A stretch of DNA of 32,000 nt from Acaryochloris marina S15 (GTDB lineage: Bacteria > Cyanobacteriota > Cyanobacteriia > Thermosynechococcales > Thermosynechococcaceae). Location of the stretch: assembly GCF_018336915.1 (NCBI RefSeq), contig NZ_CP064923.1, forward strand, positions 1,350,001-1,382,000. Reading direction: 5' to 3'. Position numbers and translations under genes: made by a program. Shown here piece after piece: positions 5,586-26,986 of the stretch (the first letter of the stretch is position 1; every line of letters starts with the position of its first letter). The notes under the pieces are model-generated. The model did not search any database. It had not been told where the DNA came from and saw nothing but the letters and a program-made list of their open reading frames with translations.

Positions 5586-6473
5586 CTAGCCAAGGCGGCG
5601 GTAGAGTAGCTTTTGAATGCTTAGGAGTGCGAGGGCATCAAATCCGAATAGCAGTAATAAAGAACCCGCTAGGCTTACAGATCCCCAAGGTGCTTCCATC
5701 ACAACGCTAGTGAAGCTCCAGTCGTTATGGAGATAAAGGTAACGAATCGGCTCAATGGCGAAGCTGAGGGGATTCAAGCTTGCCACCACCTGTAGCCAAG
5801 TGGGCATAAAGGTTAAGGGGACTAAAGCTGTGCTGGCAAACAGCAGAGGCAAATTCGTGACAAAGATAACGGCAATTAGTTCGATGTGACCCGGTAATGC
5901 AAAGGAAAGTCCCAGGCTAAGGGCTGTCACGCCTAAAACTAGGAGTAAAACAATGAGAGCAACAATGGCTAAACCCACCGTATTGGGTAAACCAGCTCCC
6001 ATAAAGAAGCTCAGAGCCATAATCGCTAGGGTTTGGACCAAACTTAAGGTGGTGATGAAAATCGCTGATGCCATCACGATGGAAAAGCGGGATGCCAGGG
6101 GAGCCACCAGCAGTCGGTTCAAGAACCCAAATTCCCGGTCAAACATGACAGGGAGACCCGCATTTAAAGCGCCACTAAAGGCCGTAAACACAATGACGCC
6201 TGCGCTGAGGAACTGGCCATAGCTTTGGCTCGTTCCGAATAGGCCTTCCGGTACATTTTTAAACAGGGCGCCAAACAGAACCAACCACATCAAAGGCTGA
6301 ATAATGCCAGCAATTAAGGTGGTGGGGCGTCGCTTCAGTTGAATGAACAGACGGCGGGTTAGGGCGACCGTCTCTTGTAAAAATTCGCCAGAAACAATGC
6401 CAGGAGTTGTCAATAAATCGGCTTGAACACCTGAGTCAGCGATTGAGTTGGTGTTAGCGGAGGTGGTGGTCAT
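5586..6473 (-). CDS. ABC-2 type transporter permease
   Basis: 295 aa with about six hydrophobic helices. The N-terminal RRLFIQLKRRPTTLIAGIIQPLMWLVLFG segment is typical of ABC-2 permeases. It lies directly downstream of an ABC ATPase on the same strand. Confidence 0.8.
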   Translation of the reverse strand: MTTTSANTNSIADSGVQADLLTTPGIVSGEFLQETVALTRRLFIQLKRRPTTLIAGIIQPLMWLVLFGALFKNVPEGLFGTSQSYGQFLSAGVIVFTAFSGALNAGLPVMFDREFGFLNRLLVAPLASRFSIVMASAIFITTLSLVQTLAIMALSFFMGAGLPNTVGLAIVALIVLLLVLGVTALSLGLSFALPGHIELIAVIFVTNLPLLFASTALVPLTFMPTWLQVVASLNPLSFAIEPIRYLYLHNDWSFTSVVMEAPWGSVSLAGSLLLLFGFDALALLSIQKLLYRRLG

Positions 6474-6555
6474 AACAAAGTTTTAAAAGTTGGTATCTAG
6501 ATTCAGAAAAAGTTGAGGACCTACCGACGGCCAGTTGATCCTGATTGATAGGGAG

Positions 6556-7575
6556 CTAACGCATATTTTCTTTGCGTTCTTTTTTGCGATCGCGGGTGCC
6601 TGCTGCTGCCATTTCAGCATCCAATAAAGTTCGACCTGTGGCAGCCAGATAAACATCGTCCAAACTCGGACGGGCTTGGGCAATGCTGAAGATGGGCAAC
6701 CCGGCCTCTTTAAGGGCAGTTTGAATATTTAACAGGGCATCTCCTTGGGAAGAGACCACCATATTGAGTGAGTTGCCTTGGGCAGGGTTAATAATCACAT
6801 CCTGAACAAAGGGCAAGGCGGTGGTCATTTCCTGGGCCTGTTGTGCCTCTTGATCTGGGGTGAACTCCCGAATCTTAAGGGTGACTCGATCTCCCCCAAC
6901 TTGGTCTTTAAGTTCCGTGGGAGCTCCTTCGGCAATCACGGTACCTTGGTCAATGATGGCGACGCGATCGGCAAGGGCATCGATCTCTTCTAAATAATGG
7001 CTAGTCAGCAGAATCGTTGTGCCTCGCTCTCGCAGCCCTTGCAGGAAGTCCCAGATCACGACCCGACTTTCAATATCTAACCCTACGGTGGGTTCATCTA
7101 AAACTAAGACAGCCGGCGCATGCAAGAGACCAGCTGCCAGGTCTAGACGTTTACGAATGCCGCCAGAATAGGTTCCTGTTTTAGTGTCCGCCCAACTTTG
7201 TAAATCCAGAAGCGTTAAAACTTTTTCTACCTGGTCAGCAATCGTTTTGGCAGGTAAATGATAGAGGGCCGCTTGCAGTTGCAGCAATTCACGACCGGTT
7301 AGGACTTTATCCAGGGCTACTTCTTGGGCAATATATCCCAACAGTTGACGGGCAGCTCTGGGATATTTTCGCACAGAGACCCCATTCACCTCGATGTTGC
7401 CACCATCAGGTGTGGCTAAGCTGCATAGGCAACGCAAGGTTGTGGTTTTACCAGCACCATTGGGTCCTAGCAAGCCAAAAATCTCTCCCGGTTGAATTTG
7501 AAAGGAGACATCTTTAACTGCTTCAACCTTGCCGTAGGATTTTTTTAGGTTTTGGATGAGAACAGCAGGAGCCAT
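6556..7575 (-). CDS. ABC transporter ATP-binding protein (DrrA/ABC-2 exporter type)
   Basis: 339 aa with Walker A GPNGAGKTT, ABC signature YSGGIRKRL, Walker B VLVLDEPTVGLD and H-loop TSHYLEE. Confidence 0.9.
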   Translation of the reverse strand: MAPAVLIQNLKKSYGKVEAVKDVSFQIQPGEIFGLLGPNGAGKTTTLRCLCSLATPDGGNIEVNGVSVRKYPRAARQLLGYIAQEVALDKVLTGRELLQLQAALYHLPAKTIADQVEKVLTLLDLQSWADTKTGTYSGGIRKRLDLAAGLLHAPAVLVLDEPTVGLDIESRVVIWDFLQGLRERGTTILLTSHYLEEIDALADRVAIIDQGTVIAEGAPTELKDQVGGDRVTLKIREFTPDQEAQQAQEMTTALPFVQDVIINPAQGNSLNMVVSSQGDALLNIQTALKEAGLPIFSIAQARPSLDDVYLAATGRTLLDAEMAAAGTRDRKKERKENMR

Positions 7576-16223: not shown

Positions 16224-17729
16224 ATGGAGATTTACTGTACCCGCCCGAATTGTCAGCGCCCGAATAACTATTTTGCTGACCTGGATGATCCTCAGGCTCT
16301 CAAAGCTGTACAGCAAAAGTTTTGCTTAAGCTGTGGAATGCCGTTGATCCTTATTGGTCGATATTTACCGTCGCGACTGCTGGCAAAGGGTGGATTTGGA
16401 GCGGCGTATCTAGCTTGCGATCGCTACACGCCAGGCTTACGGGATTGTGTGGTGAAGCAATTTCAGCCCACGGGTTTAGGGCCTAGCCAGATGCAAATGG
16501 CCCAAAGCTTATTTCAGCGAGAAGCCGAAGTCCTGGAAAAATTGGGTCGGCATCCGCAAATTCCGGATCTATTTGCTTTTTTTGAGTTACCGGTCTCTGG
16601 GCGAGGATCACAACCCGCTGAAGATTTTTTCTATTTGGCCCAAGAATTTATTGATGGCAAAACTCTTGAAGAAGAGTTAGACGACAAAACTCAGTTTAAG
16701 GAAAAGGAAATCCTGGAACTGCTGGCAGAAATTCTGCCTGTTCTCCAGTTTGTCCATGAGAATGGCTCGATTCATCGGGATATTAAGCCTTCGAATATCA
16801 TGCGCCATACCCATACCAATATGACCCAAACGGGAAATGGGTTGCTGTATCTCCTGGATTTTGGGGCCGTGAAGCAGGTCGCCAATGTGGCAGCCCCTAC
16901 CCCCAGCAAGGCCACCAGTATCTATACCCCCTTCTATGCTCCACCGGAGCAAACCCATGGTAATCAGGTGTTTCCCTCGTCCGATTTATACGCGTTGGCC
17001 GTCACCTGTATTGTGCTGTTAACGGGTAAAGCCCCCAACGACTTGTTCGATACGTCCCACAATCAGTGGAACTGGCGACCCCATGCTCAGGTGAGCGATC
17101 GTTTGGCTCTGATTTTGGACCGGATATTAGAGACTTCACCCCAAAAACGATTTCAGTCTGCTGCCGAAATTCTGGTGCAGTTGGGTCAACCCCGTTCCAG
17201 TCTGGGGCAGCCACTTAACTATAGTCAGCCCGCACCCCAATCTCCATCCCCACCCGCTCCTGTGTCGCCAGCTCCTGCCAGTCCTGTACCTCAGGCAGCC
17301 AGTCCTGTACCTCAAGCTCCTGTGCCTCAGGCGGCTAGTCCTGCTATCCCGACCCCCGTGCGTGTCAAGACACCACCACCTCCTTTTTCGCTAGTTCGCA
17401 TGTTAGGGGGAGCTGCTTTCACGGGGTTTGAAGGAGGCGTATTGGCAGTGGCACTGACGAGCTTTTTGGGTACAACCCTGATCAGCGGTGGTTTTTGGAT
17501 AGGCCTAGTGGCTGTTTTGGTCTATTGTCAATTGCAGCAATGGATTGAGCGGGTTGATTTGGCCATTATTGCCGTGCTTACCTTGGTGATTATCTTCTTT
17601 GTCCCAGCGCTTCAAGGCGGTAACCCCATTCAATCTATTTTGTTGCTGGGGGTTGTATCGGGTTTAGTGTTGATGACCCTGAGCCTAGTGTTTCGACTGA
17701 TTTATGGTGTTTTATCTCAGTTCCTTTGA
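16224..17729 (+). CDS. Ser/Thr protein kinase with N-terminal 4-Cys zinc-ribbon prefix, Pro-rich linker and C-terminal membrane domain
   Basis: 501 aa. The N-terminus has CTRPNC...CLSCG (4-Cys). Hanks kinase motifs are present: GGFGAAY, VVKQF, IHRDIKPSNIM, LDFGAVK, YAPPEQ. Next come a P/A/S/Q-rich tract and about four hydrophobic helices. Confidence 0.9.
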   Translation: MEIYCTRPNCQRPNNYFADLDDPQALKAVQQKFCLSCGMPLILIGRYLPSRLLAKGGFGAAYLACDRYTPGLRDCVVKQFQPTGLGPSQMQMAQSLFQREAEVLEKLGRHPQIPDLFAFFELPVSGRGSQPAEDFFYLAQEFIDGKTLEEELDDKTQFKEKEILELLAEILPVLQFVHENGSIHRDIKPSNIMRHTHTNMTQTGNGLLYLLDFGAVKQVANVAAPTPSKATSIYTPFYAPPEQTHGNQVFPSSDLYALAVTCIVLLTGKAPNDLFDTSHNQWNWRPHAQVSDRLALILDRILETSPQKRFQSAAEILVQLGQPRSSLGQPLNYSQPAPQSPSPPAPVSPAPASPVPQAASPVPQAPVPQAASPAIPTPVRVKTPPPPFSLVRMLGGAAFTGFEGGVLAVALTSFLGTTLISGGFWIGLVAVLVYCQLQQWIERVDLAIIAVLTLVIIFFVPALQGGNPIQSILLLGVVSGLVLMTLSLVFRLIYGVLSQFL

Positions 17730-17741
17730 TTGTTTAGCCCC

Positions 17742-18851
17742 ATGAGTGATCCTCTACCCCCCGGTTTGTCCCCTTGGGTTGTCGCAGAACAATTCAAACC
17801 TGCAGGGACCGTCGTTGATATCCAAGAATTTGGTCAAGGCAATATCAACAGTACGTTTCTGGTGACCTTAGATGCTGCGACGGACCAACGGTTTATTCTG
17901 CAGCGAATTAATACCCAGGTGTTTCAGCAGCCTCAATTGGTGATGCGGAATATTCGCACCTATTCGGAGCATGTTTGCCAACGACTACAAACAGATGGCT
18001 GTCAAAGACGTTGGGAAGTGCCCCAAGTCTTTCTTACCCAAGACCGTCAGGACCATTGGGTCAGTCCGAATGGTGACTTTTGGCGGGCCATGAGTTTTGT
18101 GGAAACGGCCCAAGCTCTCCAGGAAATCACGACCCCTGATCAGGCGGAAGAGGTGGGCTATGCCTTGGGTATGTTTCACCATCTAATTAGCGATCTACCG
18201 GCGGAGCAGTTGGCGGATACCCTGGAGGGCTTTCATATTACCCCTCAATATTTACAGCAGTTTGAGCAGGTGCAGGATACTCAGGTTGAGTTGACGCCTG
18301 AAGTGGAATATTGTCTGCAATTTGTGTGCGATCGCAAACAAGATACCAATATTCTCGAAACGGCTAAAGCGGAGGGCAAACTCCGCATCCGTCTAATGCA
18401 TGGCGATCCTAAGATCAACAACATCTTGATGGATACAGAGACCCAGCAGGCGGTGAGTGTGATCGATCTCGATACGGTGAAACCTGGGTTGATTCACTAC
18501 GACATTGGTGACTGTCTGCGGTCGGGCTGTAACCCCTTGGGAGAAGAAACGGAACAGTGGGAAATGGTGCAGTTTGATCTCAAGATGTGCCAGCGGATTC
18601 TACAAGGATATTTGGCGGTCGCTCAGTCTTTCCTGACAGACGATGATTATGACTACCTTTATGATGCCATCCGCCTGATTGCCTTTGAACTAGGGCTGCG
18701 CTTCTTTACGGACTACCTTGCAGGCAATGTTTATTTCAAGGTCAACCATCCAGACCATAATCTCAACCGCGCCTTAGTTCAGTTCAAACTGACGGAGAGT
18801 ATCGAAGCCCAATCCGAAGCGATTCAAGCCCTGATCCAATCCTTGCGATGA
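17742..18851 (+). CDS. APH/choline-kinase-fold phosphotransferase family protein (NahK-like), substrate unknown
   Basis: The track ORF begins at TTG 17730, directly after the kinase stop codon. I prefer the ATG at 17742 (MSDPLPPG...). It has the Brenner-type catalytic motif LMHGDPKINNIL followed by VIDLDT, plus an N-terminal GQGNINSTFLV nucleotide-loop-like segment. Confidence 0.75.
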   Translation: MSDPLPPGLSPWVVAEQFKPAGTVVDIQEFGQGNINSTFLVTLDAATDQRFILQRINTQVFQQPQLVMRNIRTYSEHVCQRLQTDGCQRRWEVPQVFLTQDRQDHWVSPNGDFWRAMSFVETAQALQEITTPDQAEEVGYALGMFHHLISDLPAEQLADTLEGFHITPQYLQQFEQVQDTQVELTPEVEYCLQFVCDRKQDTNILETAKAEGKLRIRLMHGDPKINNILMDTETQQAVSVIDLDTVKPGLIHYDIGDCLRSGCNPLGEETEQWEMVQFDLKMCQRILQGYLAVAQSFLTDDDYDYLYDAIRLIAFELGLRFFTDYLAGNVYFKVNHPDHNLNRALVQFKLTESIEAQSEAIQALIQSLR

Positions 18852-19570: not shown

Positions 19571-20137
19571 ATGAATGTACAAGCTCCAACACCGCCAATA
19601 GTGGTGACCCAAGATTGTCACGTGTTGATGATTGAAGAAGAAGAAGGGGTTCGCTGTGTATTATTAGAGTCCCCCACCTATTCTCTAGGGCGAGATAAGA
19701 AAAATTCCATTGTGTTGCCTGCGTCCAAAGCAGTATCTCGTTTTCATGCCATGCTGTTGCGTATCCCTGGTGCCAATAGTTCTGGCTATAGCTACCGAAT
19801 TGTCGATGGAGATGCAACGGGTAAGCTCAGCACCAATGGTGTCGTCGTCAATGGTGAACGTACAACCTCTCATACCTTGGTCGAAGGGGATGCCGTTATG
19901 TTGGGCAATGTTAAAGCGTCCTATCGCTTAATGACCTTGTCTCCTTCAGGACTGAACCAGGTGAGTGTCGAAGGATTAGATATTCGCAGTACCCTGCCCC
20001 ATGTTTTCAATCCCCACGCCACTCTGACCAGAGAACATGCTGTTCCATCGGGCATGAATAATACAATGCCCCCGATCGAAGAAGATTTACCGCCCACCAT
20101 GTTTTTTAAGAAAGCCCCCAAGAAAACAGCACCTTAA
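19571..20137 (+). CDS. FHA domain-containing protein
   Basis: 188 aa. The FHA core reads YSLGRDKKNSIVLPASKAVSRFHAMLL ... YRIVDGDATGKLSTNGVVVNGERTTSHTLVEGDAVMLGN (G-R ... S-x-x-H ... NG signature). The C-terminal ~60 aa look disordered. Confidence 0.85.
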   Translation: MNVQAPTPPIVVTQDCHVLMIEEEEGVRCVLLESPTYSLGRDKKNSIVLPASKAVSRFHAMLLRIPGANSSGYSYRIVDGDATGKLSTNGVVVNGERTTSHTLVEGDAVMLGNVKASYRLMTLSPSGLNQVSVEGLDIRSTLPHVFNPHATLTREHAVPSGMNNTMPPIEEDLPPTMFFKKAPKKTAP

Positions 20138-20159: not shown

Positions 20160-23100
20160 CTATGATCCTTGGCATACGGATAACTGTTCCTGGGGATGAC
20201 TGTCTAAATAATCAGCCAGCCAATGGCAGCCTCGCTGTAATAAGGCATCCAAATGTTCTTGAGGAGTCTCAGACAGTTGCCAAGTCTGAACGGTTCCATC
20301 ATTGGCGACGGACGTCAATTGCTGACCCTTACTGTCAAAGCTGAGATCTTGGATCACCGTAGCGTGACCATCAAATTCCATTTGTAGGTTTCCTTGTAAG
20401 TCCCAAATTTGGATATTGCCATCTGTTGAGCCGGTGGCGATGCGTTGGCCATCAGGACTAAAACGGAGACGATACACAGAGCTTGGATAATTGCGAAAAG
20501 AAGTGAGCAGTTGGCCCTGTCGTGTCCAGAGACGAATTTGACCATCTTCCGATGCGGTGGCGAGGGTCTGGCCATCGGGACTAAAGTGACCGTCATACAC
20601 TGCCCCTTGGTGATCGGGCAGTTGAGCTATCAGATCCCCTGTTAGGGTCCATAATCGGGCAGTACCGTCCTCAGAGGTGGTTAAGAGGTGTCGAGCATCG
20701 GGACTGAAGCGAACGCTATAGACCGCCCCAGAATGGCCTTTCAGTGAAGCCTGCTGCTCTCCCTGGTGATTCCAGAGTTTAACGGTCTCATCCCGAGAAG
20801 CTGTTGCTAGGAGATTGTTTTGGGGGTTGAGTTGGATATTGTAAATGGTATCTTTGTGAGCTTGGAACGTTTGGAGTAGCTTGTCTTTCTGGTATAAGTG
20901 AACGGTGCCTTGCTTGGTGGCTGCTGCCAGTAGTTGTTTTTGAGCCTGGAAGCTCAGACTCGTAACAGCATTGACCTGACTTTGTAGTTGTTTGAAGTTG
21001 GGTTGGGTCGGTTTCCCGATTGACATAGAACCATTCACCCAAGCTGTGATTAAATCCTGGCTGTCAATACTGAAATTCAAACTGGCGATTCTACCTTGAA
21101 GCTGCCGCTGTTGTTGCGCGAGCCAAGTCGAACGAACCTGCCAGATATGGGCACTATCTTCATCATTGGAGGCGGTGGCCAGGAGATTCCCTTGGGGACT
21201 AAACCGAGCGCTATAGACAGCGCCTTGGTGCCCCCTCAATACCTGTAATGCCTGTCCAGATTGATCCCATAGCCGAATGGTTTTATCCCCGGAAGCAGAG
21301 GCTATCCACTGACCTGCTGCACTAAAACTAACGTCGTAAACGGCCCCTTGGTGGCCCCTGAAGATCTTTAAGGGTTTTCCTTGGATGCTCCACAATCGCA
21401 CCGTTTGATCCGCCCCTGCCGTGACGAGTTGCTGCCCATCTGGACTAAAGCTCACATCATAGATAGCGCCTTGATGTCCTGTTAGAACCAATAGCTGCTT
21501 GCCAGTAGGGGTCCAGATGCGGATTGTCCCATCCCGGGAGGTTGTGGCAATCCTTTGGCTGTCGGGACTAATACTAATGGCATAGATTGAGTCTTGATGC
21601 TGTTGGAATCGCAAACGTTGACGCCCTTGGCGATCGAACACAATGGCGGTGCCATCCTTCGAGGCTGAGGCGATATAGTTGCCGTCTCCACTCCAACTGA
21701 GGTCATAGATATCGCCTTGATGTCCTTGCAAGATCTGTACCGTTCGTCCCGACCGGGTCCATAAGCGAATGGTTCGATCTTGAGAGGCGGTAGCCAGAAG
21801 CTGTCCATCAGGACTAAAGGCAATATTGTAGATATCGCCTTGGTGTCCAGTAAGAACCTTTTGGGTTTGTCCTTGCAGGTTCCACAGGCGGGCGGTACCA
21901 TCCCGAGAGGCGGTGGCAATCGACTGGCCATCGGGACTAAAACTGATGCTATTAACCGTGGCTGTATGACCTTCTAAGCGGTTGCGCTCCCAGATATGCT
22001 GCAAGATTTCTTGTAAGGCGATTAAGGGTGTGGTGGTGGGATAGCTTTGTAAAGACTGATGTTGACTCACAAGAGGCCGGAGATTTTGACCGGATTCCAG
22101 GGCCGTGAGTAGGGCTGCAATCTGGTCAAAGTCAAATTGCTGGAGTGCACTTTTACCGGCCCATTCAATGGATTGGGTTTGGGCAATTTGTTGTTGCTGC
22201 AAGGCATGGTTCACCCAGATAGAGGTCGAAATGGCACCTATCAAGGACAGAGCCAGAATTCCTGTGCCTAACCGTAGTTTACGTTTGGCGTCGGCATAGG
22301 CTGCGGCTAGGGTCTGTTTGGCTTGTTTTTCGGCATCGAGTTGGGTGCTTAGACGCTCTAAGTCTCTCGCCTTACGCTCATTGTCAATGGCGATTTGCTT
22401 ATCTAAAGCTTGACTGGCCGCTAGGAATTGGTAATCTTGGTTGCTGAGTTGCTGCTCTTGAGACCAGTCAAAGGCATCTTGTAAGGCCTGACCTCTTAGC
22501 AGGCGAGAGGTATCTTGACGGTCGGATCGTTCCCAGGCCTGCATCATTTCCGCATAGGGGCGCAGGGCAGCCAGTTCCTGTTCTATCCAGCTTGGGTTGA
22601 AAATGTGACGGTAGATACGGTTATAGACGGTTAGTTGCCCTTGTCGACTGACCACTAACCCAGACAGCTGGAGTTCACTGTGGGCCGCACTACCATCGGC
22701 AACCACGAATTCTTGGTCTAGGATCTGGCGATACAGGCCCAGGAGTTGTCCTGTGCGGGCTGGGTGGTGTTGGAGTCGATCACGGATCGTGCGTAAATGG
22801 ACGGGCTCGTCTTGGGTGGACCAATGATTTATGACGTGAGATCGCACCAAGGCTGCAATACTATTTTCCTCTTGTCCTGCCGGGATTTTAGCCTGTTTCT
22901 GAATCACTAATTGGCACAGCTTCTGAGATAGAAAAGGTTGCCCCCCAGTCCAGGCTACTATGGCTTGCAATACAGCTTCTGTATTGGACGCATAAGACTG
23001 CAGTCCCTGCTGGAGTGGCCGAGCTTCTTCTGGGGTGAATCCAGCCAGTTCGATCGCATGGCCAATATTAAATAGGGTTTGGGTTTTATCTTGAATCAGA

Positions 23101-23663
23101 TCAGAAGGGGTCGCGACACCAAATAAGGCGAAGGTTAACCGGTTATAAACGCCATTCTCTGCTCGTTGATTATAAAACAAGCGAATTAAAGCAAAAAAGT
23201 CATCGACGGAGAATGGAAGGCTGAGAATTTTGTCAATTTCGTCAATAAAGATAAAAATCTTACGGTCAGGAACGTACTGGTACAACACCTCATCGATAAA
23301 GTGCTTTAGCTGCTGTACAGGCGATAAATAAGCTTGGGCCTGTAGCCATTGCTTGAGGTTAAGCTGGTCTGTCAGAGCTAACCCTTGCCAGAGTTGAACC
23401 ATCAGACTGGCATACCACTGTTGCTCCTGTACTTGGCTACCCGGCAGGGTCATATCCATGGAGACACAGGAGTGCTGCTGATCGGCCAGATAGTTCATGG
23501 CCCGGACTTTTAGGCTCGACTTCCCCATTTGGCGACTGTTGAAGACATAGCAGAAATCTCCCTGGCTGAGGGCTGCTAACAGTTCATGATCGGCTTGCCG
23601 GGTGACATAGGAAGGATGGTCGTAGCCTAAACTACCGCCAACTTTATAGGCTGTCGAATTCAT
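20160..23663 (-). CDS. P-loop NTPase (STAND/AAA-like) - coiled coil - hydrophobic helix - 14x WD40 repeat protein
   Basis: 1167 aa. The N-terminus reads YKVGGSLGYDHPSYVTRQADHELL...VFNSRQMGKSSL (Walker A), then IFIFIDEIDK (Walker B), DDFFALIRLFYNQRA, FALFGVATPSDLIQD and WTGGQPFLSQKLC. These blocks are typical of the cyanobacterial AAA-like NTPase modules fused to WD40. A charged coiled coil (ERKARDLERLSTQLDAEKQAKQ) follows, then the hydrophobic helix GTGILALSLIGAISTSIWV (nt 22212-22268), then 14 GH...WD-type repeats. Confidence 0.9.
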   Translation of the reverse strand: MNSTAYKVGGSLGYDHPSYVTRQADHELLAALSQGDFCYVFNSRQMGKSSLKVRAMNYLADQQHSCVSMDMTLPGSQVQEQQWYASLMVQLWQGLALTDQLNLKQWLQAQAYLSPVQQLKHFIDEVLYQYVPDRKIFIFIDEIDKILSLPFSVDDFFALIRLFYNQRAENGVYNRLTFALFGVATPSDLIQDKTQTLFNIGHAIELAGFTPEEARPLQQGLQSYASNTEAVLQAIVAWTGGQPFLSQKLCQLVIQKQAKIPAGQEENSIAALVRSHVINHWSTQDEPVHLRTIRDRLQHHPARTGQLLGLYRQILDQEFVVADGSAAHSELQLSGLVVSRQGQLTVYNRIYRHIFNPSWIEQELAALRPYAEMMQAWERSDRQDTSRLLRGQALQDAFDWSQEQQLSNQDYQFLAASQALDKQIAIDNERKARDLERLSTQLDAEKQAKQTLAAAYADAKRKLRLGTGILALSLIGAISTSIWVNHALQQQQIAQTQSIEWAGKSALQQFDFDQIAALLTALESGQNLRPLVSQHQSLQSYPTTTPLIALQEILQHIWERNRLEGHTATVNSISFSPDGQSIATASRDGTARLWNLQGQTQKVLTGHQGDIYNIAFSPDGQLLATASQDRTIRLWTRSGRTVQILQGHQGDIYDLSWSGDGNYIASASKDGTAIVFDRQGRQRLRFQQHQDSIYAISISPDSQRIATTSRDGTIRIWTPTGKQLLVLTGHQGAIYDVSFSPDGQQLVTAGADQTVRLWSIQGKPLKIFRGHQGAVYDVSFSAAGQWIASASGDKTIRLWDQSGQALQVLRGHQGAVYSARFSPQGNLLATASNDEDSAHIWQVRSTWLAQQQRQLQGRIASLNFSIDSQDLITAWVNGSMSIGKPTQPNFKQLQSQVNAVTSLSFQAQKQLLAAATKQGTVHLYQKDKLLQTFQAHKDTIYNIQLNPQNNLLATASRDETVKLWNHQGEQQASLKGHSGAVYSVRFSPDARHLLTTSEDGTARLWTLTGDLIAQLPDHQGAVYDGHFSPDGQTLATASEDGQIRLWTRQGQLLTSFRNYPSSVYRLRFSPDGQRIATGSTDGNIQIWDLQGNLQMEFDGHATVIQDLSFDSKGQQLTSVANDGTVQTWQLSETPQEHLDALLQRGCHWLADYLDSHPQEQLSVCQGS
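20270..21978 (-). repeat. intragenic tandem array of 14 WD40 repeat units (~41-42 codons each; enough for two 7-bladed propellers)
   Basis: I counted 14 units of the form L.GH.g.vy.v.FSPDGq.iAtaS.DgT.rLW...G in the translation. Units 8 and 9 are degenerate (LQGRIASLNFSIDSQDLITAW..., LQSQVNAVTSLSFQAQKQLLAAAT...). Confidence 0.85.
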
Positions 23664-25041
23664 GATTATTCAACGGCATATTGGCAAAGTACTGACGATA
23701 TAGCTCACAACTGGGCTGGGCATAATCCCCTGTGAGACTGACTAACCCCATGCTTTCGAGTTGATAAGCTTGAATCGGTTCTAACCGGACCTCAGGAGAT
23801 TCGGTCACCACTCGATACATGGCGGTGGCCAACTGAGGCTGGCCCTGTAAGGTATTCCACAGCCCCCGTAGATGGGTACTGTAAATACTGCTTTGGGTGG
23901 GAGCTTGTTGGAGTAGATGATTCAGCTGGAGCTGCTGGCGGCGTAGGGCATCAAAAGTGAGATGGACCAGGTAAGGATGACCACCAATGAGGGTTTTCAA
24001 GGCTTGAAAGATGTCAGGAGACTGAATTTCTAGCTTGCTATCCAGATGATATAGACGGGCTAAATCCTGCATTTGTTCAGGTGTAAAGCCCCAGAGTTTA
24101 ATCGGCCACCCCACATTAAAGGGGGATTGATGAGCATCTAGCTCAATGTAAATTTCAGTGGAATGAGCAATGACTAATCGAATTTTCTGCCAAATGGCCT
24201 GAGTATTCGCCTCTTCATTCCAAGAGCGCAGCATGGGTAAAAAATCTTGAGCAATGTGAGGATATTCAAACAGTCGATCGACGTTATCTAAAGCTAGGAC
24301 AAGGGCAACATCAACGTTGGGTAACAGATAGGTTTGAAAGTACGTCTTGCAGCTCATTAAGCTGCCATATATGTCTTCAGCCCAATACTGATCAAGTTGG
24401 GGAGGCAACCCTAATTCGCGGCAAATATTGGCACAAAACCATTGCAAAAATTTATCCAAGCTAGCGAAAATAGACGTTTCAGCTTCGCGAAAGTTCAGAT
24501 AAATTTGTTGATATTCTAAAGTCTGTGCCTGAAATAAAAGCTGGCGCAGCAATGAAGTTTTACCCATTTGGGCAGGGGCTTTAATCCGAACCAGAGCACC
24601 TACTTGCTGAATGGCTTGAGTACAGTCGGCTTCAGTGGGGGGTCTGTCGATGTAAAAGGGAGAGTTCGCAGATAGAGGCGTTCGGTAATTCAAGATAGGT
24701 AAATCTTGAGGCAAGACCGCTGCTCGCATTTGCAGCCATTTGGGATACTGTATATCTTGCAACCAGTCTCGCAAAATATTGAATTTTCCTGGCCCTTTAC
24801 TCAATAAATCTAGTTCAGCACAGCCATGATCTGTTTGACTAGCAAAAGCAGAATAAACCGTAGTCATTTGCTTTTTATAGGATTCATGGCTGGCTGCCTG
24901 GGCCAGGGGCCAAACCTCTTTATCGGGTTTGCGCCAATGCTCATAAGCAAAACGAGTCAGAAAAATATTTTTAACTTTGCCCGTTAAGTTCACTTCTTGA
25001 GCGGTATGCTTCAAGAAATCATCCCATTGGTGAGGTTTCAT
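23644..25041 (-). CDS. AAA-like (AAA_35-type) P-loop NTPase with N-terminal helical, possibly HTH-like, domain
   Basis: 465 aa. The core reads FYIDRPPTEADCTQAIQQVGALVRIKAPAQMGKTSLLRQLL (Walker A), FLQWFCANICRELGL, ALVLALDNVDRLFEYPHIAQDFLPMLRSWNEEA (Walker B region), QSPFNVGWPIKLWGFTPEQ, IGGHPYLV and CELYRQYF. This matches the block pattern I recall for the Pfam AAA_35 'AAA-like domain' family. Its stop at 23644 overlaps the downstream ATG at 23663 by 20 nt. Confidence 0.85.
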   Translation of the reverse strand: MKPHQWDDFLKHTAQEVNLTGKVKNIFLTRFAYEHWRKPDKEVWPLAQAASHESYKKQMTTVYSAFASQTDHGCAELDLLSKGPGKFNILRDWLQDIQYPKWLQMRAAVLPQDLPILNYRTPLSANSPFYIDRPPTEADCTQAIQQVGALVRIKAPAQMGKTSLLRQLLFQAQTLEYQQIYLNFREAETSIFASLDKFLQWFCANICRELGLPPQLDQYWAEDIYGSLMSCKTYFQTYLLPNVDVALVLALDNVDRLFEYPHIAQDFLPMLRSWNEEANTQAIWQKIRLVIAHSTEIYIELDAHQSPFNVGWPIKLWGFTPEQMQDLARLYHLDSKLEIQSPDIFQALKTLIGGHPYLVHLTFDALRRQQLQLNHLLQQAPTQSSIYSTHLRGLWNTLQGQPQLATAMYRVVTESPEVRLEPIQAYQLESMGLVSLTGDYAQPSCELYRQYFANMPLNNHEFDSL

Positions 25042-25280
25042 CTATTTTAATGACCCACTCAAGTCAGGATAGATAATCTTTTGGGAAGGTTGTTCATCTC
25101 TGGTTTGTATCGGTTGATTGGAAGGTCTTGAATTCCACTTGCTTCTACTTTTTTCCACTTCCAGATTAATGAGTTTCTATTTATTTATTCTTAGATTTTG
25201 GCTGCCATTAGACTGACATGCCTGGGCTTTGAGACTAATCTAACACTTGAGAGTAACCGATAAAGCTGAGTAATAAAGCA

Positions 25281-25760
25281 ATGGCTAAATCCTCTGTGAT
25301 GTTGGCTGCTGCTCTGATGGGTGCGACAGCATTTATGTCTCCTGTCCAAGCAGTAATCCTAAGTCAAGAAAGTACACAGCAAGTCCAAGAAGAGCAAACC
25401 TCTTCATTGATTGCGAATAAAACACGATCCCGACGTCATAAGCGCTACTGTTGGCGTCGATATGGTCGACTCTATTGTCGAGATGATCACAATTCCAGTC
25501 GTAATGATCGTTGGCGTCAGCAAAAGCTGAAAGAACGTCGTCGTTGGGAAAAAGAGCGAGACCGCCGTTGGCGAGAGCGTCGTCGACGCTCGGAAAAACG
25601 CCGTCGTTGGGAAAATCGTCGCCGAGATGAAGACTATTGGCGGTCTCGTCGTCGCGATCGCGACTATGAGAATGAGAATTGGCGAAAAGGAGATCGACGA
25701 GGTGATTTCCAAGATAAGCTAGACCGCTGGCTTAATCGTGGCCGTGATGATGACGATTAA
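25281..25760 (+). CDS. secreted Arg/Trp/Asp/Glu-rich repeat protein (hypothetical)
   Basis: 159 aa. It has an N-terminal signal peptide MAKSSVMLAAALMGATAFMSPVQA. About 100 aa follow that are dominated by R, W, D and E, with Trp recurring every 8-14 residues (RRRWEKERDRRWRERRRRSEKRRRWENRRRDEDYWRSRRRDRDYENENWRKGD...). A strong terminator follows. Confidence 0.65.
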   Translation: MAKSSVMLAAALMGATAFMSPVQAVILSQESTQQVQEEQTSSLIANKTRSRRHKRYCWRRYGRLYCRDDHNSSRNDRWRQQKLKERRRWEKERDRRWRERRRRSEKRRRWENRRRDEDYWRSRRRDRDYENENWRKGDRRGDFQDKLDRWLNRGRDDDD

Positions 25761-26440: not shown

Positions 26441-26986
26441 TTATTCTACTTCTACTAAATACTGAGTGGGCACATAATCGGTGAGCCAAACGCCATTTTC
26501 GGAACAATAAAAAAGATAGCCATCAGTTTGCATTTTTAGGGCATTAATTTCTAACACAGTGGGCTTGCCATGTCGTCTGCCTACTGCGATCGCAATTTCG
26601 TATGACGCTGATAGATGAACGTGTTGACGCCCAGAAGGGAGTAAGCCACTCGCCATGATAGACGCTAAAAACCGTGTGGCTGTTCCATGAAATAAAACAG
26701 AAGGTGGTGTCAAAGGTAATAAATCTAAGTTGACCGGAATGGAATGTCCTTGGTTAGCTCGAATATATTGCCCATCTTCACTTAATTTAAAACGCTGCTT
26801 ATCATTAGAAATAACCACTTTTTTGATGATTTCTTCAGATAAAGAATGGTCATGTTTGTCAGCACATTGAATTAAGTCAGAAACGGCTGCCCAGCCACCC
26901 GCATTAAGCTCTAAATCAATGGCCTCTGGCCGATGGCGGAGAATATAGCTGAGAAACTTGCTCACAGCTTTTAACGGTTGGTCCAT
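26441..26986 (-). CDS. kptA: RNA 2'-phosphotransferase, Tpt1/KptA family
   Basis: 181 aa with Tpt1/KptA blocks: VSKFLSYILRHRPE, GGWAAVSDLI, QRFKLSEDGQYIRANQGHS, LFHGTA, GRQHVHLS. Confidence 0.85.
   Translation of the reverse strand: MDQPLKAVSKFLSYILRHRPEAIDLELNAGGWAAVSDLIQCADKHDHSLSEEIIKKVVISNDKQRFKLSEDGQYIRANQGHSIPVNLDLLPLTPPSVLFHGTATRFLASIMASGLLPSGRQHVHLSASYEIAIAVGRRHGKPTVLEINALKMQTDGYLFYCSENGVWLTDYVPTQYLVEVE

What the first reader, a model, noticed from the sequence alone, without database searches (positions are those of the whole stretch)
20160..25041. Overlapping tandem pair of distinct P-loop NTPases, the second fused to a 14-blade WD40 sensor-like module
Seen in the sequence:
- A 465-aa AAA_35-like NTPase (Walker A QMGKTS) with a ~130-aa N-terminal helical domain ends 20 nt inside the start of a 1167-aa protein.
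- The N-terminus of that 1167-aa protein is a different AAA-like NTPase module (QMGKSS, IFIDEIDK). A coiled coil, one hydrophobic helix and 14 WD40 repeats follow it.
- The 20-nt overlap implies co-transcription and probably translational coupling.

Established knowledge: STAND/AAA-like NTPases fused to repeat super-structures (WD40, TPR) act as ligand-triggered switches in immunity and programmed cell death. They are expanded in multicellular cyanobacteria and actinobacteria as parts of conflict systems.

Inference: a two-NTPase module could be a sensor-transducer pair. One component has a possible DNA-binding or adaptor head, and the other has a large propeller sensor.

Neither protein has an obvious effector domain (no nuclease, protease, TIR or similar), so the output is unknown.
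Basis: partly seen in the sequence, partly recalled or inferred. Interest (0 to 1): 0.68.

Follow-up and report, generated by a model that had tools for sequence, protein, structure and literature searches.

The report
Split two-gene STAND sensor–regulator pair
Two overlapping cyanobacterial genes encode related ATP-binding switch proteins, one carrying a probable DNA-binding head and the other a membrane anchor plus a large propeller probably outside the cytoplasm, so together they look like a receptor split in two that carries an outside signal to gene expression rather than a phage-defence system.

Summary
On the minus strand, P1 (23644..25041, 465 aa) overlaps P2 (20160..23663, 1167 aa) by 20 nt, with intact Walker motifs and 14 WD40 repeats in a 41-aa register.

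The two NTPases are not different families. Both match Pfam AAA_35 and are old paralogues, here called type A (P1) and type B (P2).

Comparative data support a functional pair:
- The genes are adjacent in several cyanobacterial lineages, with different flanking genes.
- In 36 of 57 metagenome loci with at least 2 kb upstream, a type A gene lies upstream of a type B gene.
- Type A carries only a variable N-terminal output domain. Type B carries only a C-terminal module.

New points:
- P1's N-terminal domain is a diverged LuxR/GerE-like helix-turn-helix.
- Type B has a conserved single membrane helix. Positive-inside charge and a cysteine-poor C-terminal part suggest the WD40 propellers lie outside the cytoplasm.
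- A conserved element (box ATGTCAGTC plus AAGTRGAA repeats every 10 nt) precedes P1 across genera, and precedes NACHT genes that share P1's N-domain.

The locus sits among the same flanking genes in four Acaryochloris genomes, with no defence neighbours. The best reading is a split, membrane-spanning STAND-type transcription switch. This is inferred, not shown.

The parts
23644..25041 (-). P1: type A AAA_35 NTPase, 465 aa (orthologue of A. marina MBIC11017 AM1_4611)
   Evidence: The ORF is listed. It matches Pfam AAA_35 at 4e-140. It is 96% identical to L001 / AM1_4611. The AF2 model has pLDDT 86, and its best PDB fold matches are SSO1545 (2fna) and PABY2304 (2qen), followed by Cdc6/ORC, CED-4, RPP1 and Avs3.
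24718..25041 (-). P1 N-terminal five-helix domain (aa 1-108): a diverged LuxR/GerE-like helix-turn-helix and the presumed output module
   Evidence: About 40 positions are invariant across orthologues. A profile search found the domain only at the N-terminus of AAA_35, NACHT, NB-ARC and nSTAND1 proteins. hhalign of the diverse profile A6 against a GerE-type head gave probability 90%, E 1.5e-6. A PDB sequence search with A6 put VpsT (LuxR family) first at E 0.012, with ChrA, ComA, RhlR and GerE also aligned on the HTH region. Neither Pfam nor Foldseek gave a direct hit.
23683..24681 (-). P1 AAA_35 NTPase plus helical and winged-helix-like region (aa 121-453). Walker A is at 24553..24579. Walker B LVLALDNVDR is at 24274..24303.
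   Evidence: G160, K161 and T162 are invariant in 52 orthologues. The residue after the Walker B aspartate is Asn253 in at least 90% of them, rather than Glu.
20160..23663 (-). P2: type B AAA_35 NTPase, then a membrane helix, then 14 WD40 repeats; 1167 aa (orthologue of AM1_4612)
22596..23633 (-). P2 AAA_35 module (aa 11-356). Walker A is at 23511..23537. Walker B IFIFIDEIDK is at 23229..23258.
   Evidence: It matches Pfam AAA_35 at 2e-28. Among type B genes, GKSS is present in 83 of 83 and DEID in 76 of 83.
22278..22421 (-). Charged helical (coiled-coil-like) stretch, aa 415-462
   Evidence: This is read from the sequence and is conserved in orthologues. No coiled-coil prediction program was run.
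22212..22268 (-). Predicted single transmembrane helix (aa 466-484), preceded by KRKLR
   Evidence: Its Kyte-Doolittle score is 1.65, the highest in the protein. A homologous hydrophobic segment scoring at least 1.6 is present in 74 of 83 type B genes, and at least 2.0 in 61 of 83. K+R counts are 4 in the 15 aa before the helix and 0 after it in P2; the family means are 4.53 and 2.22.
20247..21971 (-). 14 WD40 repeats (aa 565-1139), enough for two seven-bladed propellers; predicted to be extracytoplasmic
   Evidence: There is no DNA-level tandem repeat. The repeats contain no cysteine.
20163..20246 (-). Conserved C-terminal tail GCxWLxDY..HP..C, holding the only two cysteines after the membrane helix
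   Evidence: Pfam gave no family for it.
25208..25219 (-). Box 1, ATGTCAGTCTAA: the first half of the conserved upstream element of P1
   Evidence: Box 1 lies on the coding strand within 350 nt upstream of P1 orthologues in 46 of 77 loci, at 1.73 per kb against 0.021 per kb elsewhere.
25133..25160 (-). Three AAGTRGAA 8-mers at an exact 10-nt period: the second half of the upstream element and a candidate operator array
   Evidence: The array is unique in the window and appeared in 0 of 100 shuffles. Such arrays occur upstream of P1 in 34 of 77 loci, against 7 of 4761 background windows. They also occur upstream of P2 in L077 and upstream of NACHT genes that share P1's N-domain.

Best explanation
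P1 and P2 are the two halves of a split STAND-type ATP switch of the AAA_35 family. The family probably corresponds to the cyanobacterial 'Npun2340/2341' family of the MNS clade.

**P2 (type B)** is read as the sensor half. A canonical NTPase sits at its extreme N-terminus in the cytoplasm. It is followed by a coiled-coil-like stretch, one membrane-spanning helix, and two WD40 propellers that probably face the periplasm or thylakoid lumen.

**P1 (type A)** is read as the output half. It has a LuxR/GerE-like helix-turn-helix head on a paralogous NTPase whose Walker B glutamate is replaced by asparagine, and nothing follows the NTPase.

**Proposed mechanism:**
1. Binding of an extracytoplasmic ligand or protein to the propellers changes the nucleotide or oligomeric state of P2's NTPase.
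2. P2 then co-assembles with P1, or releases it.
3. Oligomerised P1 binds head-to-tail arrays of AAGTRGAA boxes, including those in front of its own gene. It thereby controls its own operon and a small regulon.

**Shown here:**
- the family membership of both proteins;
- the gene overlap;
- recurrent type A to type B synteny;
- complementary domain content;
- a conserved hydrophobic helix with charge bias;
- a conserved upstream element.

**Inferred, not shown:**
- physical interaction between P1 and P2;
- the membrane topology;
- DNA binding by P1;
- which protein binds the element;
- the nature of the signal.
For: **Family**
- Both proteins match AAA_35.
- The P1 model's best fold matches are SSO1545 and PABY2304, followed by Cdc6/ORC, CED-4, plant NLRs and Avs3.
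- Kaur et al. [quoted passage not shown]

**Pairing**
- The 20-nt overlap is real.
- P2 lies directly downstream of P1 in Acaryochloris (four genomes), Thermosynechococcaceae (two), Altericista, 'Lyngbya' confervoides, Symploca, Xenococcaceae and unnamed MAGs. None of the window's flanking genes was found in the non-Acaryochloris loci. The order is swapped in L070 but the genes are still adjacent.
- Paralogous type A to type B pairs exist:
  - GerE-AAA_35 followed by AAA_35-PBP, with a 4-nt overlap (L078);
  - HTH_VMAP-M9-AAA_35 followed by AAA_35-WD40 (L082);
  - cyclase-TIR-AAA_35, then AAA_35-GUN4, then AAA_35-CHAT (L081).
- In 36 of 57 metagenome loci with at least 2 kb of upstream sequence, a type A gene lies upstream of the type B gene on the same strand.

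**Complementary architecture**
- Type A proteins end a median of 5.5 aa after the AAA_35 match.
- Type B NTPases start a median of 3 aa after the nearest upstream Met.
- Type A heads include protein kinase, several HTH types, CHAT, TIR and BTAD+Trans_reg_C.
- Type B C-terminal modules include WD40, PBP_like_2, PG_binding_1, CHAT and GUN4.

**Asymmetry of the two NTPases**
- Type B Walker motifs are nearly invariant.
- Type A Walker B is variable, and P1 has DNVD.

**Topology of P2**
- Type B paralogues with PBP_like_2 and PG_binding_1 modules, which are typical periplasmic domains, carry the same helix. The GUN4 fusion does not.
- In 7 of 9 P2 orthologues (3 cysteines in the other two), only two cysteines occur in the roughly 680 aa after the helix; they are the conserved pair.

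**HTH head:**

**Upstream element**
- It also sits in front of NACHT genes that share only the N-domain (L164, L167, L169) and in front of a divergent type A gene (L165).
- It was not found in front of paralogous type A genes with other heads.

**Not an island:**
Against: - P1 orthologues stand without an adjacent P2 in most Microcystaceae-type genomes (Crocosphaera, Microcystis, Synechocystis, diatom endosymbionts). In these, the partner is either unlinked or absent.
- 21 of the 57 type B loci with at least 2 kb of upstream sequence lack an upstream type A gene.
- P2's hydrophobic segment is only at the usual Kyte-Doolittle threshold (1.65). No dedicated topology predictor was available. A few type B WD40 proteins lack the helix (P0197, P0209).
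- P1's own N-domain gives no Pfam or Foldseek hit. A shallow profile gave nothing with hhalign. The HTH link rests on a wider family profile with modest statistics (E 0.012 against the PDB; hhalign probability 90%).
- The upstream element may lie in the 5' UTR and could be bound by another factor. Its association with the N-domain could also reflect co-inheritance of a promoter with the 5' coding end.
- The element also precedes unrelated small genes.
- No interaction model could be run.
Confidence: 0.5

Rival explanations
1. The pair is an anti-phage or programmed-cell-death conflict system of the NLR/Avs kind. The WD40 part would sense an invader protein, the NTPases would oligomerise, and an as-yet unrecognised toxic output would follow.
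For: - STAND-like NTPases with repeat sensors are used this way (PMC13581612; PMC8195603).
- Paralogous type A proteins carry TIR, CHAT, adenylate/guanylate cyclase and kinase heads.
- One paralogous locus sits next to a caspase-nSTAND1 gene and a CyanoTRADDas_TM gene (L078).
- P1's N-domain also heads NACHT proteins.
Against: - There is no specific PADLOC family; the only hit is driven by the WD40 repeats.
- Neighbouring genes include a kinase, a phosphotransferase, an FHA-domain gene, Tpt1 and cyclophilin, with no recognised defence gene, and are collinear in four Acaryochloris genomes.
- P1 is a 50-60% identical orthologue across cyanobacterial orders and is kept in reduced endosymbiont genomes.
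- The WD40 repeats are not hypervariable at the DNA level.
- The head looks like a DNA-binding domain, not a toxin.
- A sensor predicted to lie outside the cytoplasm would not meet intracellular phage proteins.
Confidence: 0.15
2. The two genes are simply neighbouring paralogues that work independently. P1 would be a self-contained regulator or adaptor, and P2 a self-contained WD40 NTPase. The adjacency would be historical.
For: - P1 lacks an adjacent P2 in about 64 of 77 genomes sampled.
- A Microcystis type B gene stands alone.
- 21 of 57 type B loci lack an upstream type A gene.
Against: - The two are only 22% identical, so they are not a recent duplication.
- The reading frames overlap by 20 nt here and by 4 nt in other pairs.
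- Adjacency survives changes of neighbourhood and a swap of gene order.
- Neither protein alone has both an input and an output domain.
- In L077, where the two genes are 640 nt apart, each has its own copy of the same upstream element.
Confidence: 0.15
3. The pair works together, but P2 is a soluble cytoplasmic Apaf-1-like sensor. The hydrophobic segment would be a buried helix, and the WD40 propellers would bind a cytoplasmic ligand.
For: - P2's segment scores only 1.65.
- Some type B WD40 proteins have no such segment.
- WD40-bearing STAND proteins studied so far are cytoplasmic (PMC13581612).
Against: - A hydrophobic segment at the same position, usually scoring at least 2.0, is found in 74 of 83 type B genes.
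- The charge bias follows the positive-inside rule.
- The same helix precedes periplasm-type PBP and peptidoglycan-binding domains.
- The part after the helix is cysteine-free except for one conserved pair.
Confidence: 0.2

Closest known systems
Pfam AAA_35 (PF14516), probably the cyanobacterial Npun2340/2341 family of the MNS clade of STAND NTPases (Leipe et al. 2004, as cited in PMC8195603)
   Same: - Both proteins match AAA_35.
- The family is cyanobacterial and often fused to WD40.
- The fold is closest to SSO1545 and PABY2304.
- The family's name is itself taken from two consecutively numbered genes.
   Different: - No experimental function is known for the family.
- I found no description in the searchable library of the type A / type B split, the membrane helix, the HTH head or the upstream element.
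- I could not read Leipe 2004, so I cannot say how much of the pairing was noted there.
MalT and the LAL regulators (large ATP-binding regulators of the LuxR family); SARP/AfsR-type STAND regulators
   Same: - They combine a STAND NTPase, a repeat sensor and a LuxR-type or other HTH domain.
- From established knowledge: MalT oligomerises in response to signal and ATP on arrays of asymmetric boxes arranged as direct repeats.
   Different: - Those are single cytoplasmic polypeptides, and in MalT/LAL the HTH is C-terminal.
- Here the HTH is N-terminal on one protein, the sensor is on a second paralogous NTPase, and the sensor is predicted to lie across the membrane.
- The NTPase clade is different: AAA_35, not the MalT type.
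Paired plant NLRs (for example RGA4/RGA5 and RPS4/RRS1) and sensor/helper NLR networks
   Same: Two adjacent genes encode two STAND NTPases with divided labour: one senses and the other executes.
   Different: - Those are eukaryotic NB-ARC proteins arranged head-to-head, both with LRRs, and the output is cell death.
- This is an analogy only.
Bacterial Apaf-1-like WD40 STANDs and Avs proteins
   Same: They combine an NTPase with double WD40 propellers or other repeat sensors and oligomerise on ligand binding (PMC13581612).
   Different: - Those are single proteins with N-terminal toxic effectors.
- They are cytoplasmic sensors of phage proteins and are associated with defence islands.
Membrane-bound one-component regulators (ToxR/CadC type)
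   Same: A periplasmic sensor domain is coupled through a single membrane helix to control of transcription.
   Different: - Those have the DNA-binding domain on the same polypeptide and no NTPase.
- This is a functional analogy only.

Membership tests
Pfam AAA_35 (PF14516) | Significant full-length match to the family profile, above the gathering score of 27 bits | tested here: met
   P1 scores 466.8 bits over profile positions 4-330 of 331. The P2 N-terminal part scores 99.5 bits over positions 5-330 of 331.
Pfam AAA_35 (PF14516) | Intact P-loop (Walker A GK[ST]) and Walker B aspartate | tested here: met
   In P1, G160, K161, T162 and D252 are invariant in 52 orthologues. In P2, GKSS and DEID are invariant in orthologues and nearly so in 83 type B genes. 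One caveat: P1 has Asn, not Glu, after the Walker B aspartate.
STAND NTPases, MNS clade (Npun2340/2341 family) | NTPase fold closest to the archaeal SSO-type and MJ-type ATPases, followed by helical and winged-helix modules | tested here: met
   Foldseek's top hits are 2fna (SSO1545, E 9.8e-9) and 2qen (PABY2304), followed by Cdc6/ORC, CED-4, RPP1 and Avs3. The model ends with helices plus a beta-hairpin at residues 434-443.
STAND NTPases, MNS clade (Npun2340/2341 family) | Direct sequence identity of AAA_35 with the proteins Leipe et al. named Npun2340 and Npun2341 | not testable with these tools
   Leipe 2004 is not held in the library, and the old draft gene numbers could not be mapped. The family name appears only in PMC8195603.
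LuxR/GerE-type HTH (P1 N-terminal domain) | Significant match to GerE, Sigma70_r4 or related profiles, or to solved LuxR-type HTH structures | tested here: inconclusive
   P1 alone gave no Pfam hit and no Foldseek hit. The wider family profile A6 gave hhalign probability 90%, E 1.5e-6 against a GerE-positive head. Against the PDB, A6 hit VpsT at E 0.012 and ChrA, ComA, RhlR and GerE at E 0.18-0.93, all aligned on the HTH.
MalT / LAL regulators | Single polypeptide with a MalT-type NTPase, a TPR-like sensor and a C-terminal LuxR HTH | tested here: not met
   The system is made of two polypeptides. The HTH-like domain is N-terminal. The NTPase matches AAA_35, and no MalT-type family was reported.
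Known anti-phage defence systems (PADLOC-DB v2) | Match to a defence-system protein model and/or location among defence genes | tested here: not met
   P1 gave no hit. P2 hit only HEAT-ARM_XIII, through its WD40 repeats. Neighbouring genes match no recognised defence family and are collinear across Acaryochloris.
Single-pass membrane receptor (N-in, C-out) | One hydrophobic helix of about 20 residues, positive-inside charge bias, and an extracytoplasmic-type C-terminal domain | tested here: inconclusive
   P2's segment scores 1.65, and the equivalent segment scores at least 1.6 in 74 of 83 type B genes. K+R counts are 4 before and 0 after the helix. Cysteine is depleted after the helix apart from one conserved pair. 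Paralogues with the same helix carry PBP and PG_binding C-terminal modules. No topology predictor or experiment was available.

The most novel reading that the evidence does not exclude
The AAA_35 type A / type B pairs would be a previously undescribed class of bacterial signal transduction: a heteromeric STAND ATP switch that spans the membrane. An extracytoplasmic sensor (WD40, PBP-like or peptidoglycan-binding) sits on one NTPase. An interchangeable cytoplasmic output (HTH, kinase, TIR or CHAT) sits on a partly degenerate partner NTPase.

In the P1/P2 orthogroup the output would be an HTH that binds its own conserved AAGTRGAA operator array. This would give a conserved cyanobacterial regulon, and the divergently encoded secreted Arg/Trp-rich protein could be a ligand or a target.
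Probability: 0.3. Interest if true: 0.8.

Novelty: new variant of a known kind. Interest (0 to 1): 0.6.

Why it matters
STAND/NLR-type switches are usually studied as single cytoplasmic proteins that sense a ligand and release an effector.

If this reading is right, cyanobacteria have divided the switch between two paralogous NTPases and put the sensor on the other side of the membrane. That would be a third route for outside-to-inside signalling, beside two-component systems and ToxR-like regulators. It would also be a prokaryotic counterpart of sensor/helper NLR pairs.

The family is large and has no experimentally known function. More than 2,400 type A-like and 5,500 type B-like proteins appeared in the searches.

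The P1/P2 orthogroup is conserved, apparently single-copy in the loci sampled, and has a defined candidate operator. This makes it an unusually tractable way into the family.

Tried and rejected
**N-terminal domain of P1**
- Pfam and NCBIfam gave nothing for the P1 N-terminus.
- hhalign with the shallow orthologue profile A4 against two HTH heads gave nothing.
- Foldseek of the isolated N-domain model (pLDDT 77) against the PDB gave no hit better than E 2.
- A profile search of PDB sequences with the P1 family found only P-loop-level matches, so no solved relative was found by sequence.

**Other parts of P2**
- I tested whether P2's Cys/His tail is the NACHT 'NCC-H' motif; it gave no hit.
- A homologue search with P2's membrane helix and linker returned nothing. 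That was the last of the capped searches.

**Regulatory signals and RNA**
- The promoter and terminator scan found fewer sites than chance and was uninformative.
- Rfam and RNAalifold gave no support for an RNA structure in the upstream element. I therefore dropped the riboswitch or sRNA reading, although a linear RNA motif is not excluded.
- TRF found no WD40 DNA repeats, so I dropped the idea of highly conserved, fast-shuffling repeats.

**Literature**
- 'AAA_35' and 'PF14516' brought almost only noise.
- There was no real paper on AM1_4611 or AM1_4612.
- Leipe 2004 is not held in the library.
- The supplements of PMC13581612 are not held.
- From memory, Synechocystis slr0143 might be the P2 orthologue. 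I could not check this and have not used it.

**Defence-island reading**
- I rejected this for this locus on the evidence.

Full report
**1. Observation**

The two ORFs exist as described, on the minus strand. P1 is 23644..25041 (465 aa) and P2 is 20160..23663 (1167 aa). P1's stop codon lies 20 nt inside P2.

The P2 start is fixed. The conserved motif YKVGG begins at residue 6, and no other start codon lies between the upstream stop and that motif.

P2 has one outstanding hydrophobic segment at aa 466-484, with a Kyte-Doolittle score of 1.65. It has 14 WD40 units in a strict 41-aa register, and units 8 and 9 are degenerate. Pfam counts 12 units.

One point in the description is wrong. The two NTPases are not different kinds.
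- Both match Pfam AAA_35: P1 at 4e-140 and P2 at 2e-28, each over the whole profile.
- They align to each other at 22% identity, E 4e-10.

I call the two subfamilies type A (P1-like) and type B (P2-like).

**2. Source organism and setting**

The window is 96% identical at protein level to Acaryochloris marina MBIC11017. There the genes are AM1_4611 and AM1_4612, annotated only as AAA-like and WD40 proteins. No real paper mentions them.

Neighbouring genes include a Ser/Thr kinase, an APH-type phosphotransferase, an FHA-domain protein, Tpt1/KptA, a DUF2459 protein and cyclophilin. All the flanking genes that were compared keep the same order and orientation in four Acaryochloris species-level genomes, whose P1 identity falls to 73%. 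PADLOC gives nothing specific. This is a stable chromosomal locus among collinear flanking genes, not a variable island.

**3. Family**

The AF2 model of P1 (pLDDT 86) is closest to the archaeal ATPases SSO1545 (2fna) and PABY2304 (2qen). Next come Cdc6/ORC, CED-4, the plant NLR RPP1 and Avs3.

Kaur et al. 2021 refer to an 'MNS clade (Npun2340/2341 family)' of STAND NTPases, citing Leipe 2004 (PMC8195603). Three things make it likely that AAA_35 is that family: the cyanobacterial distribution, the SSO-like fold, and a family name taken from two consecutive genes. I could not read Leipe 2004 to confirm this. No member has a solved structure detectable by sequence.

**4. Are the two genes a pair?**

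P1 orthologues were found in 77 species genomes. They are 450-465 aa long and 45-96% identical, mostly 50-60% outside Acaryochloris.

P2 lies immediately downstream on the same strand in these genomes, and none of the window's flanking genes was found in the non-Acaryochloris loci:
- Acaryochloris (four genomes)
- Thermosynechococcaceae (two genomes)
- Altericista
- 'Lyngbya' confervoides
- Symploca
- a Xenococcaceae MAG
- an unnamed MAG (L074)

Two further cases differ slightly. In L070 the order is P2 then P1, still adjacent. In L072 the two genes are 1.8 kb apart.

P2 is not adjacent in Crocosphaera, Microcystis, Synechocystis, Snowella, Hydrococcus/Pleurocapsa or the diatom endosymbionts. 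Type B proteins that are 52-55% identical to P2 do exist in Crocosphaera, Snowella and Microcystis, and the one Microcystis example I looked at stands alone.

The same arrangement recurs among paralogues:
- GerE-AAA_35 followed, with a 4-nt overlap, by AAA_35-PBP_like_2 (L078).
- HTH_VMAP-M9-AAA_35 followed by AAA_35-WD40 (L082).
- Cyclase-TIR-AAA_35, then AAA_35-GUN4, then AAA_35-CHAT (L081).

I also sampled 80 metagenome loci carrying type B WD40 genes. Of the 57 with at least 2 kb of upstream sequence, 36 have a type A gene upstream on the same strand.

The two types are cleanly separable by profile score and have complementary content:
- Type A proteins end a median of 5.5 residues after the AAA_35 match and carry a variable N-terminal domain.
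- Type B NTPases begin a median of 3 residues after the nearest upstream Met and carry the variable C-terminal part.
- Type A heads include protein kinase (3), HTH_26 (3), GerE (2), CHAT (2), TIR, BTAD+Trans_reg_C and HTH_3.

A classical STAND protein has the order effector-NTPase-sensor. Here the effector and the sensor sit on two paralogous NTPases. This is the strongest argument that the pair works as one unit.

**5. Asymmetry of the two NTPases**

Type B keeps GKSS in 83 of 83 genes and DEID in 76 of 83.

Type A keeps the P-loop (GK[ST]S in 37 of 40), but its Walker B is variable (DEVD, NEVN, DDVD, SNID, SAVE and others). The P1 orthogroup has DNVD, with Asn253 in at least 90% of sequences.

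By analogy with Walker B Glu substitutions in other P-loop ATPases, P1 may bind ATP but hydrolyse it poorly. This is an inference.

**6. The P1 head**

Residues 1-108 form five helices and are the most conserved part of the protein. Direct tests failed: Pfam, Foldseek and a shallow-profile hhalign all gave nothing.

A profile search of 1.8 billion representative proteins found 73 proteins. In those I inspected, the domain is always N-terminal, on AAA_35, NACHT (with HEAT, NCC-H and NCAB1), NB-ARC and nSTAND1 proteins. It therefore occupies the effector or adaptor position of several STAND clades.

The more divergent members show a canonical helix-turn-helix signature, for example ...DKQIASLLGISEPAFKKRMGKVY.... 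With this wider profile (A6):
- hhalign against the GerE-positive head of the Brasilonema partner gives probability 90%, E 1.5e-6, aligning P1 residues 18-69.
- A PDB sequence search puts the LuxR-family regulator VpsT first (E 0.012). ChrA, ComA, RhlR and GerE also appear, all aligned on their HTH.

I read the head as a diverged LuxR/GerE-like HTH, with moderate confidence.

**7. P2 topology**

A hydrophobic segment about 450 residues after the NTPase start is present in 74 of 83 type B genes (score at least 1.6) and in 61 of 83 at a score of at least 2.0. It is nearly always preceded by a K/R cluster.

K+R in the 15 residues before the segment averages 4.53, against 2.22 after it. The count before exceeds the count after in 61 of 73 genes. 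In P2 the counts are 4 and 0.

Domain content fits an outside location. The same helix precedes PBP_like_2 and PG_binding_1 modules, which are typical periplasmic domains, in paralogues. The GUN4 fusion has no such helix.

In 7 of 9 P2 orthologues, the roughly 680 residues after the helix contain only two cysteines, and the other two orthologues have three. The two are the conserved pair in the C-terminal tail GCxWLxDY..HP..C. The 460 residues before the helix have 3-10 cysteines. This pattern is expected for an exported domain with one disulfide.

Together this suggests an N-in, C-out topology with the propellers outside the cytoplasm. Two caveats apply. P2's own score is borderline, and no topology predictor or experiment was available. 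A few type B WD40 proteins lack the helix.

**8. A conserved upstream element**

Aligning the P1 upstream regions of the Acaryochloris genomes showed conserved blocks. The element has two parts:
- Box 1, ATGTCAGTC(C/T)(C/A)A, at window 25208..25219 on the minus strand.
- After a spacer of variable length, 8-mers of the form (A/T)(A/T)AGT(A/G)GAA or AACATGGAA at an exact 10-nt period. In the window there are three, at 25133..25160, and this array appeared in 0 of 100 shuffles.

Across the 77 P1 loci:
- Box 1 lies on the coding strand within 350 nt upstream in 46 loci, at 1.73 per kb against 0.021 per kb elsewhere.
- Arrays with 10- or 20-nt spacing occur in 34 loci, against 7 of 4761 background windows.

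The element is found in Acaryochloris, Hydrococcus, Crocosphaera, Microcystis, Pannus and the diatom endosymbionts. A -10-like nATAn motif sits 18 nt before box 1, so the element may be transcribed. Rfam and RNAalifold give no RNA family or structure.

The element's other locations are informative:
- In L077, where P1 and P2 are 640 nt apart, each gene has its own copy. The P2 copy is 101 nt before its start.
- Genes that share only P1's N-domain also have it. These are three NACHT genes (L164, L167, L169), where the 8-mers occur in both orientations, and a divergent type A gene followed by a type B gene (L165). L166 has none, and L168 has a different triple repeat.
- Paralogous type A genes with other heads show no such element.

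The simplest reading is that the HTH head binds these boxes, giving autoregulation plus a small regulon. This would resemble the way oligomerising MalT or DnaA bind arrays of asymmetric boxes (established knowledge).

Two alternatives remain. Another factor may bind the element. Or the promoter and the 5' coding segment may have travelled together during domain shuffling.

The element also precedes a Uma2-like ORF and a small secreted protein.

**9. Mechanism, with likelihoods**

I propose a split, membrane-spanning STAND switch. P2 senses something outside the cytoplasm through its propellers. Its canonical NTPase changes state and co-assembles with P1's partly degenerate NTPase, or releases it. 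P1's HTH then acts on the AAGTRGAA arrays.

My confidence in the separate steps:

| Step | Confidence |
|---|---|
| Same family, old paralogues | about 0.97 |
| Functional pair / operon | about 0.8 |
| HTH-type DNA-binding head | about 0.65 |
| Extracytoplasmic WD40 | about 0.6 |
| Regulatory rather than defensive role for this orthogroup | about 0.6 |
| Whole chain | about 0.5 |

**10. Comparison and novelty**

The proteins are members of AAA_35, within the STAND/MNS group.

- They work like MalT/LAL or SARP regulators in combining an NTPase, a sensor and an HTH. They are not members of those families, because the system has two polypeptides, an N-terminal HTH and a different NTPase clade.
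- They resemble paired plant NLRs only by analogy.
- They differ from Avs and Apaf-1-like bacterial STANDs in lacking a toxic effector, in genomic context and in predicted topology.

The searchable literature did not describe the type A / type B split, the membrane helix, the head's identity or the operator.

I rate the finding as a new variant of a known kind, with interest 0.6.

Noticed in passing
window 25133..25219 (minus strand); also L001-L077 upstream of P1, L077:7910, and L164, L165, L167 and L169 upstream regions: A composite element is conserved across cyanobacterial genera in front of P1. It consists of box ATGTCAGTC(C/T)(C/A)A followed by (A/T)(A/T)AGT(A/G)GAA 8-mers every 10 nt. 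It also precedes P2 in L077 and precedes NACHT genes that share P1's N-domain. It gave no Rfam match and no consensus RNA structure.
   Followed up: yes
window 25281..25760 (+): A 159-aa ORF lies divergent from P1. It has a Sec-type signal peptide followed by an Arg/Trp/Glu-rich repeat region (RRWRERRRR, RRWENRRRDEDYWR). It is conserved next to P1 in all four Acaryochloris genomes. Similar secreted Trp/Arg/Gln-repeat ORFs (WREHQWREQQW) sit beside P1 in L069 and L070, each behind its own copy of the upstream element. It could be a ligand, a target or a co-regulated product.
   Followed up: partly
L018, L019, L022, L027, L076 (diatom endosymbiont 'spheroid body' genomes), match at 6001..7356: Intact P1 orthologues (56% identity, residues 1-452 in a single alignment) and their upstream element are retained in the reduced genomes (2.5-3.1 Mb) of Epithemia and Rhopalodia endosymbionts. 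No type B gene lies within 6 kb. This argues for a housekeeping-like regulatory role. It also raises the question of whether a partner exists in those genomes.
   Followed up: partly
L081:1127-7733: Three AAA_35 genes lie in a row: adenylate/guanylate cyclase + TIR + type A, then type B + GUN4 (no membrane helix), then type B + CHAT. This is a conflict-system-like relative of the pair, with one type A gene and two type B genes.
   Followed up: partly
window 19571..20137 (+), with 16224..18851 (+): An FHA-domain gene ends 22 nt from P2's stop codon in convergent orientation. It lies downstream of a Ser/Thr kinase gene (with a Pro-rich linker and a hydrophobic tail) and an APH-type phosphotransferase gene. 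This arrangement is conserved in Acaryochloris only. No link to the pair was found.
   Followed up: no
L168:540-637: An NB-ARC gene whose head is a more divergent member of the P1 N-domain family has a different triple direct repeat upstream (AATTAGGATT, three copies at an 11-nt period). This is what one would expect if the operator co-varies with the recognition helix.
   Followed up: no
L078:1-4172: Next to the Brasilonema GerE-AAA_35 / AAA_35-PBP pair lie a caspase-nSTAND1-pentapeptide gene and a CyanoTRADDas_TM gene. At least some paralogous pairs therefore sit beside conflict-type genes.
   Followed up: no
window 26441..26986 (-): A Tpt1/KptA RNA 2'-phosphotransferase homologue (PF01885, 3e-49) lies 1.4 kb upstream of P1. 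This is ordinary, but it is a conserved neighbour in Acaryochloris.
   Followed up: no
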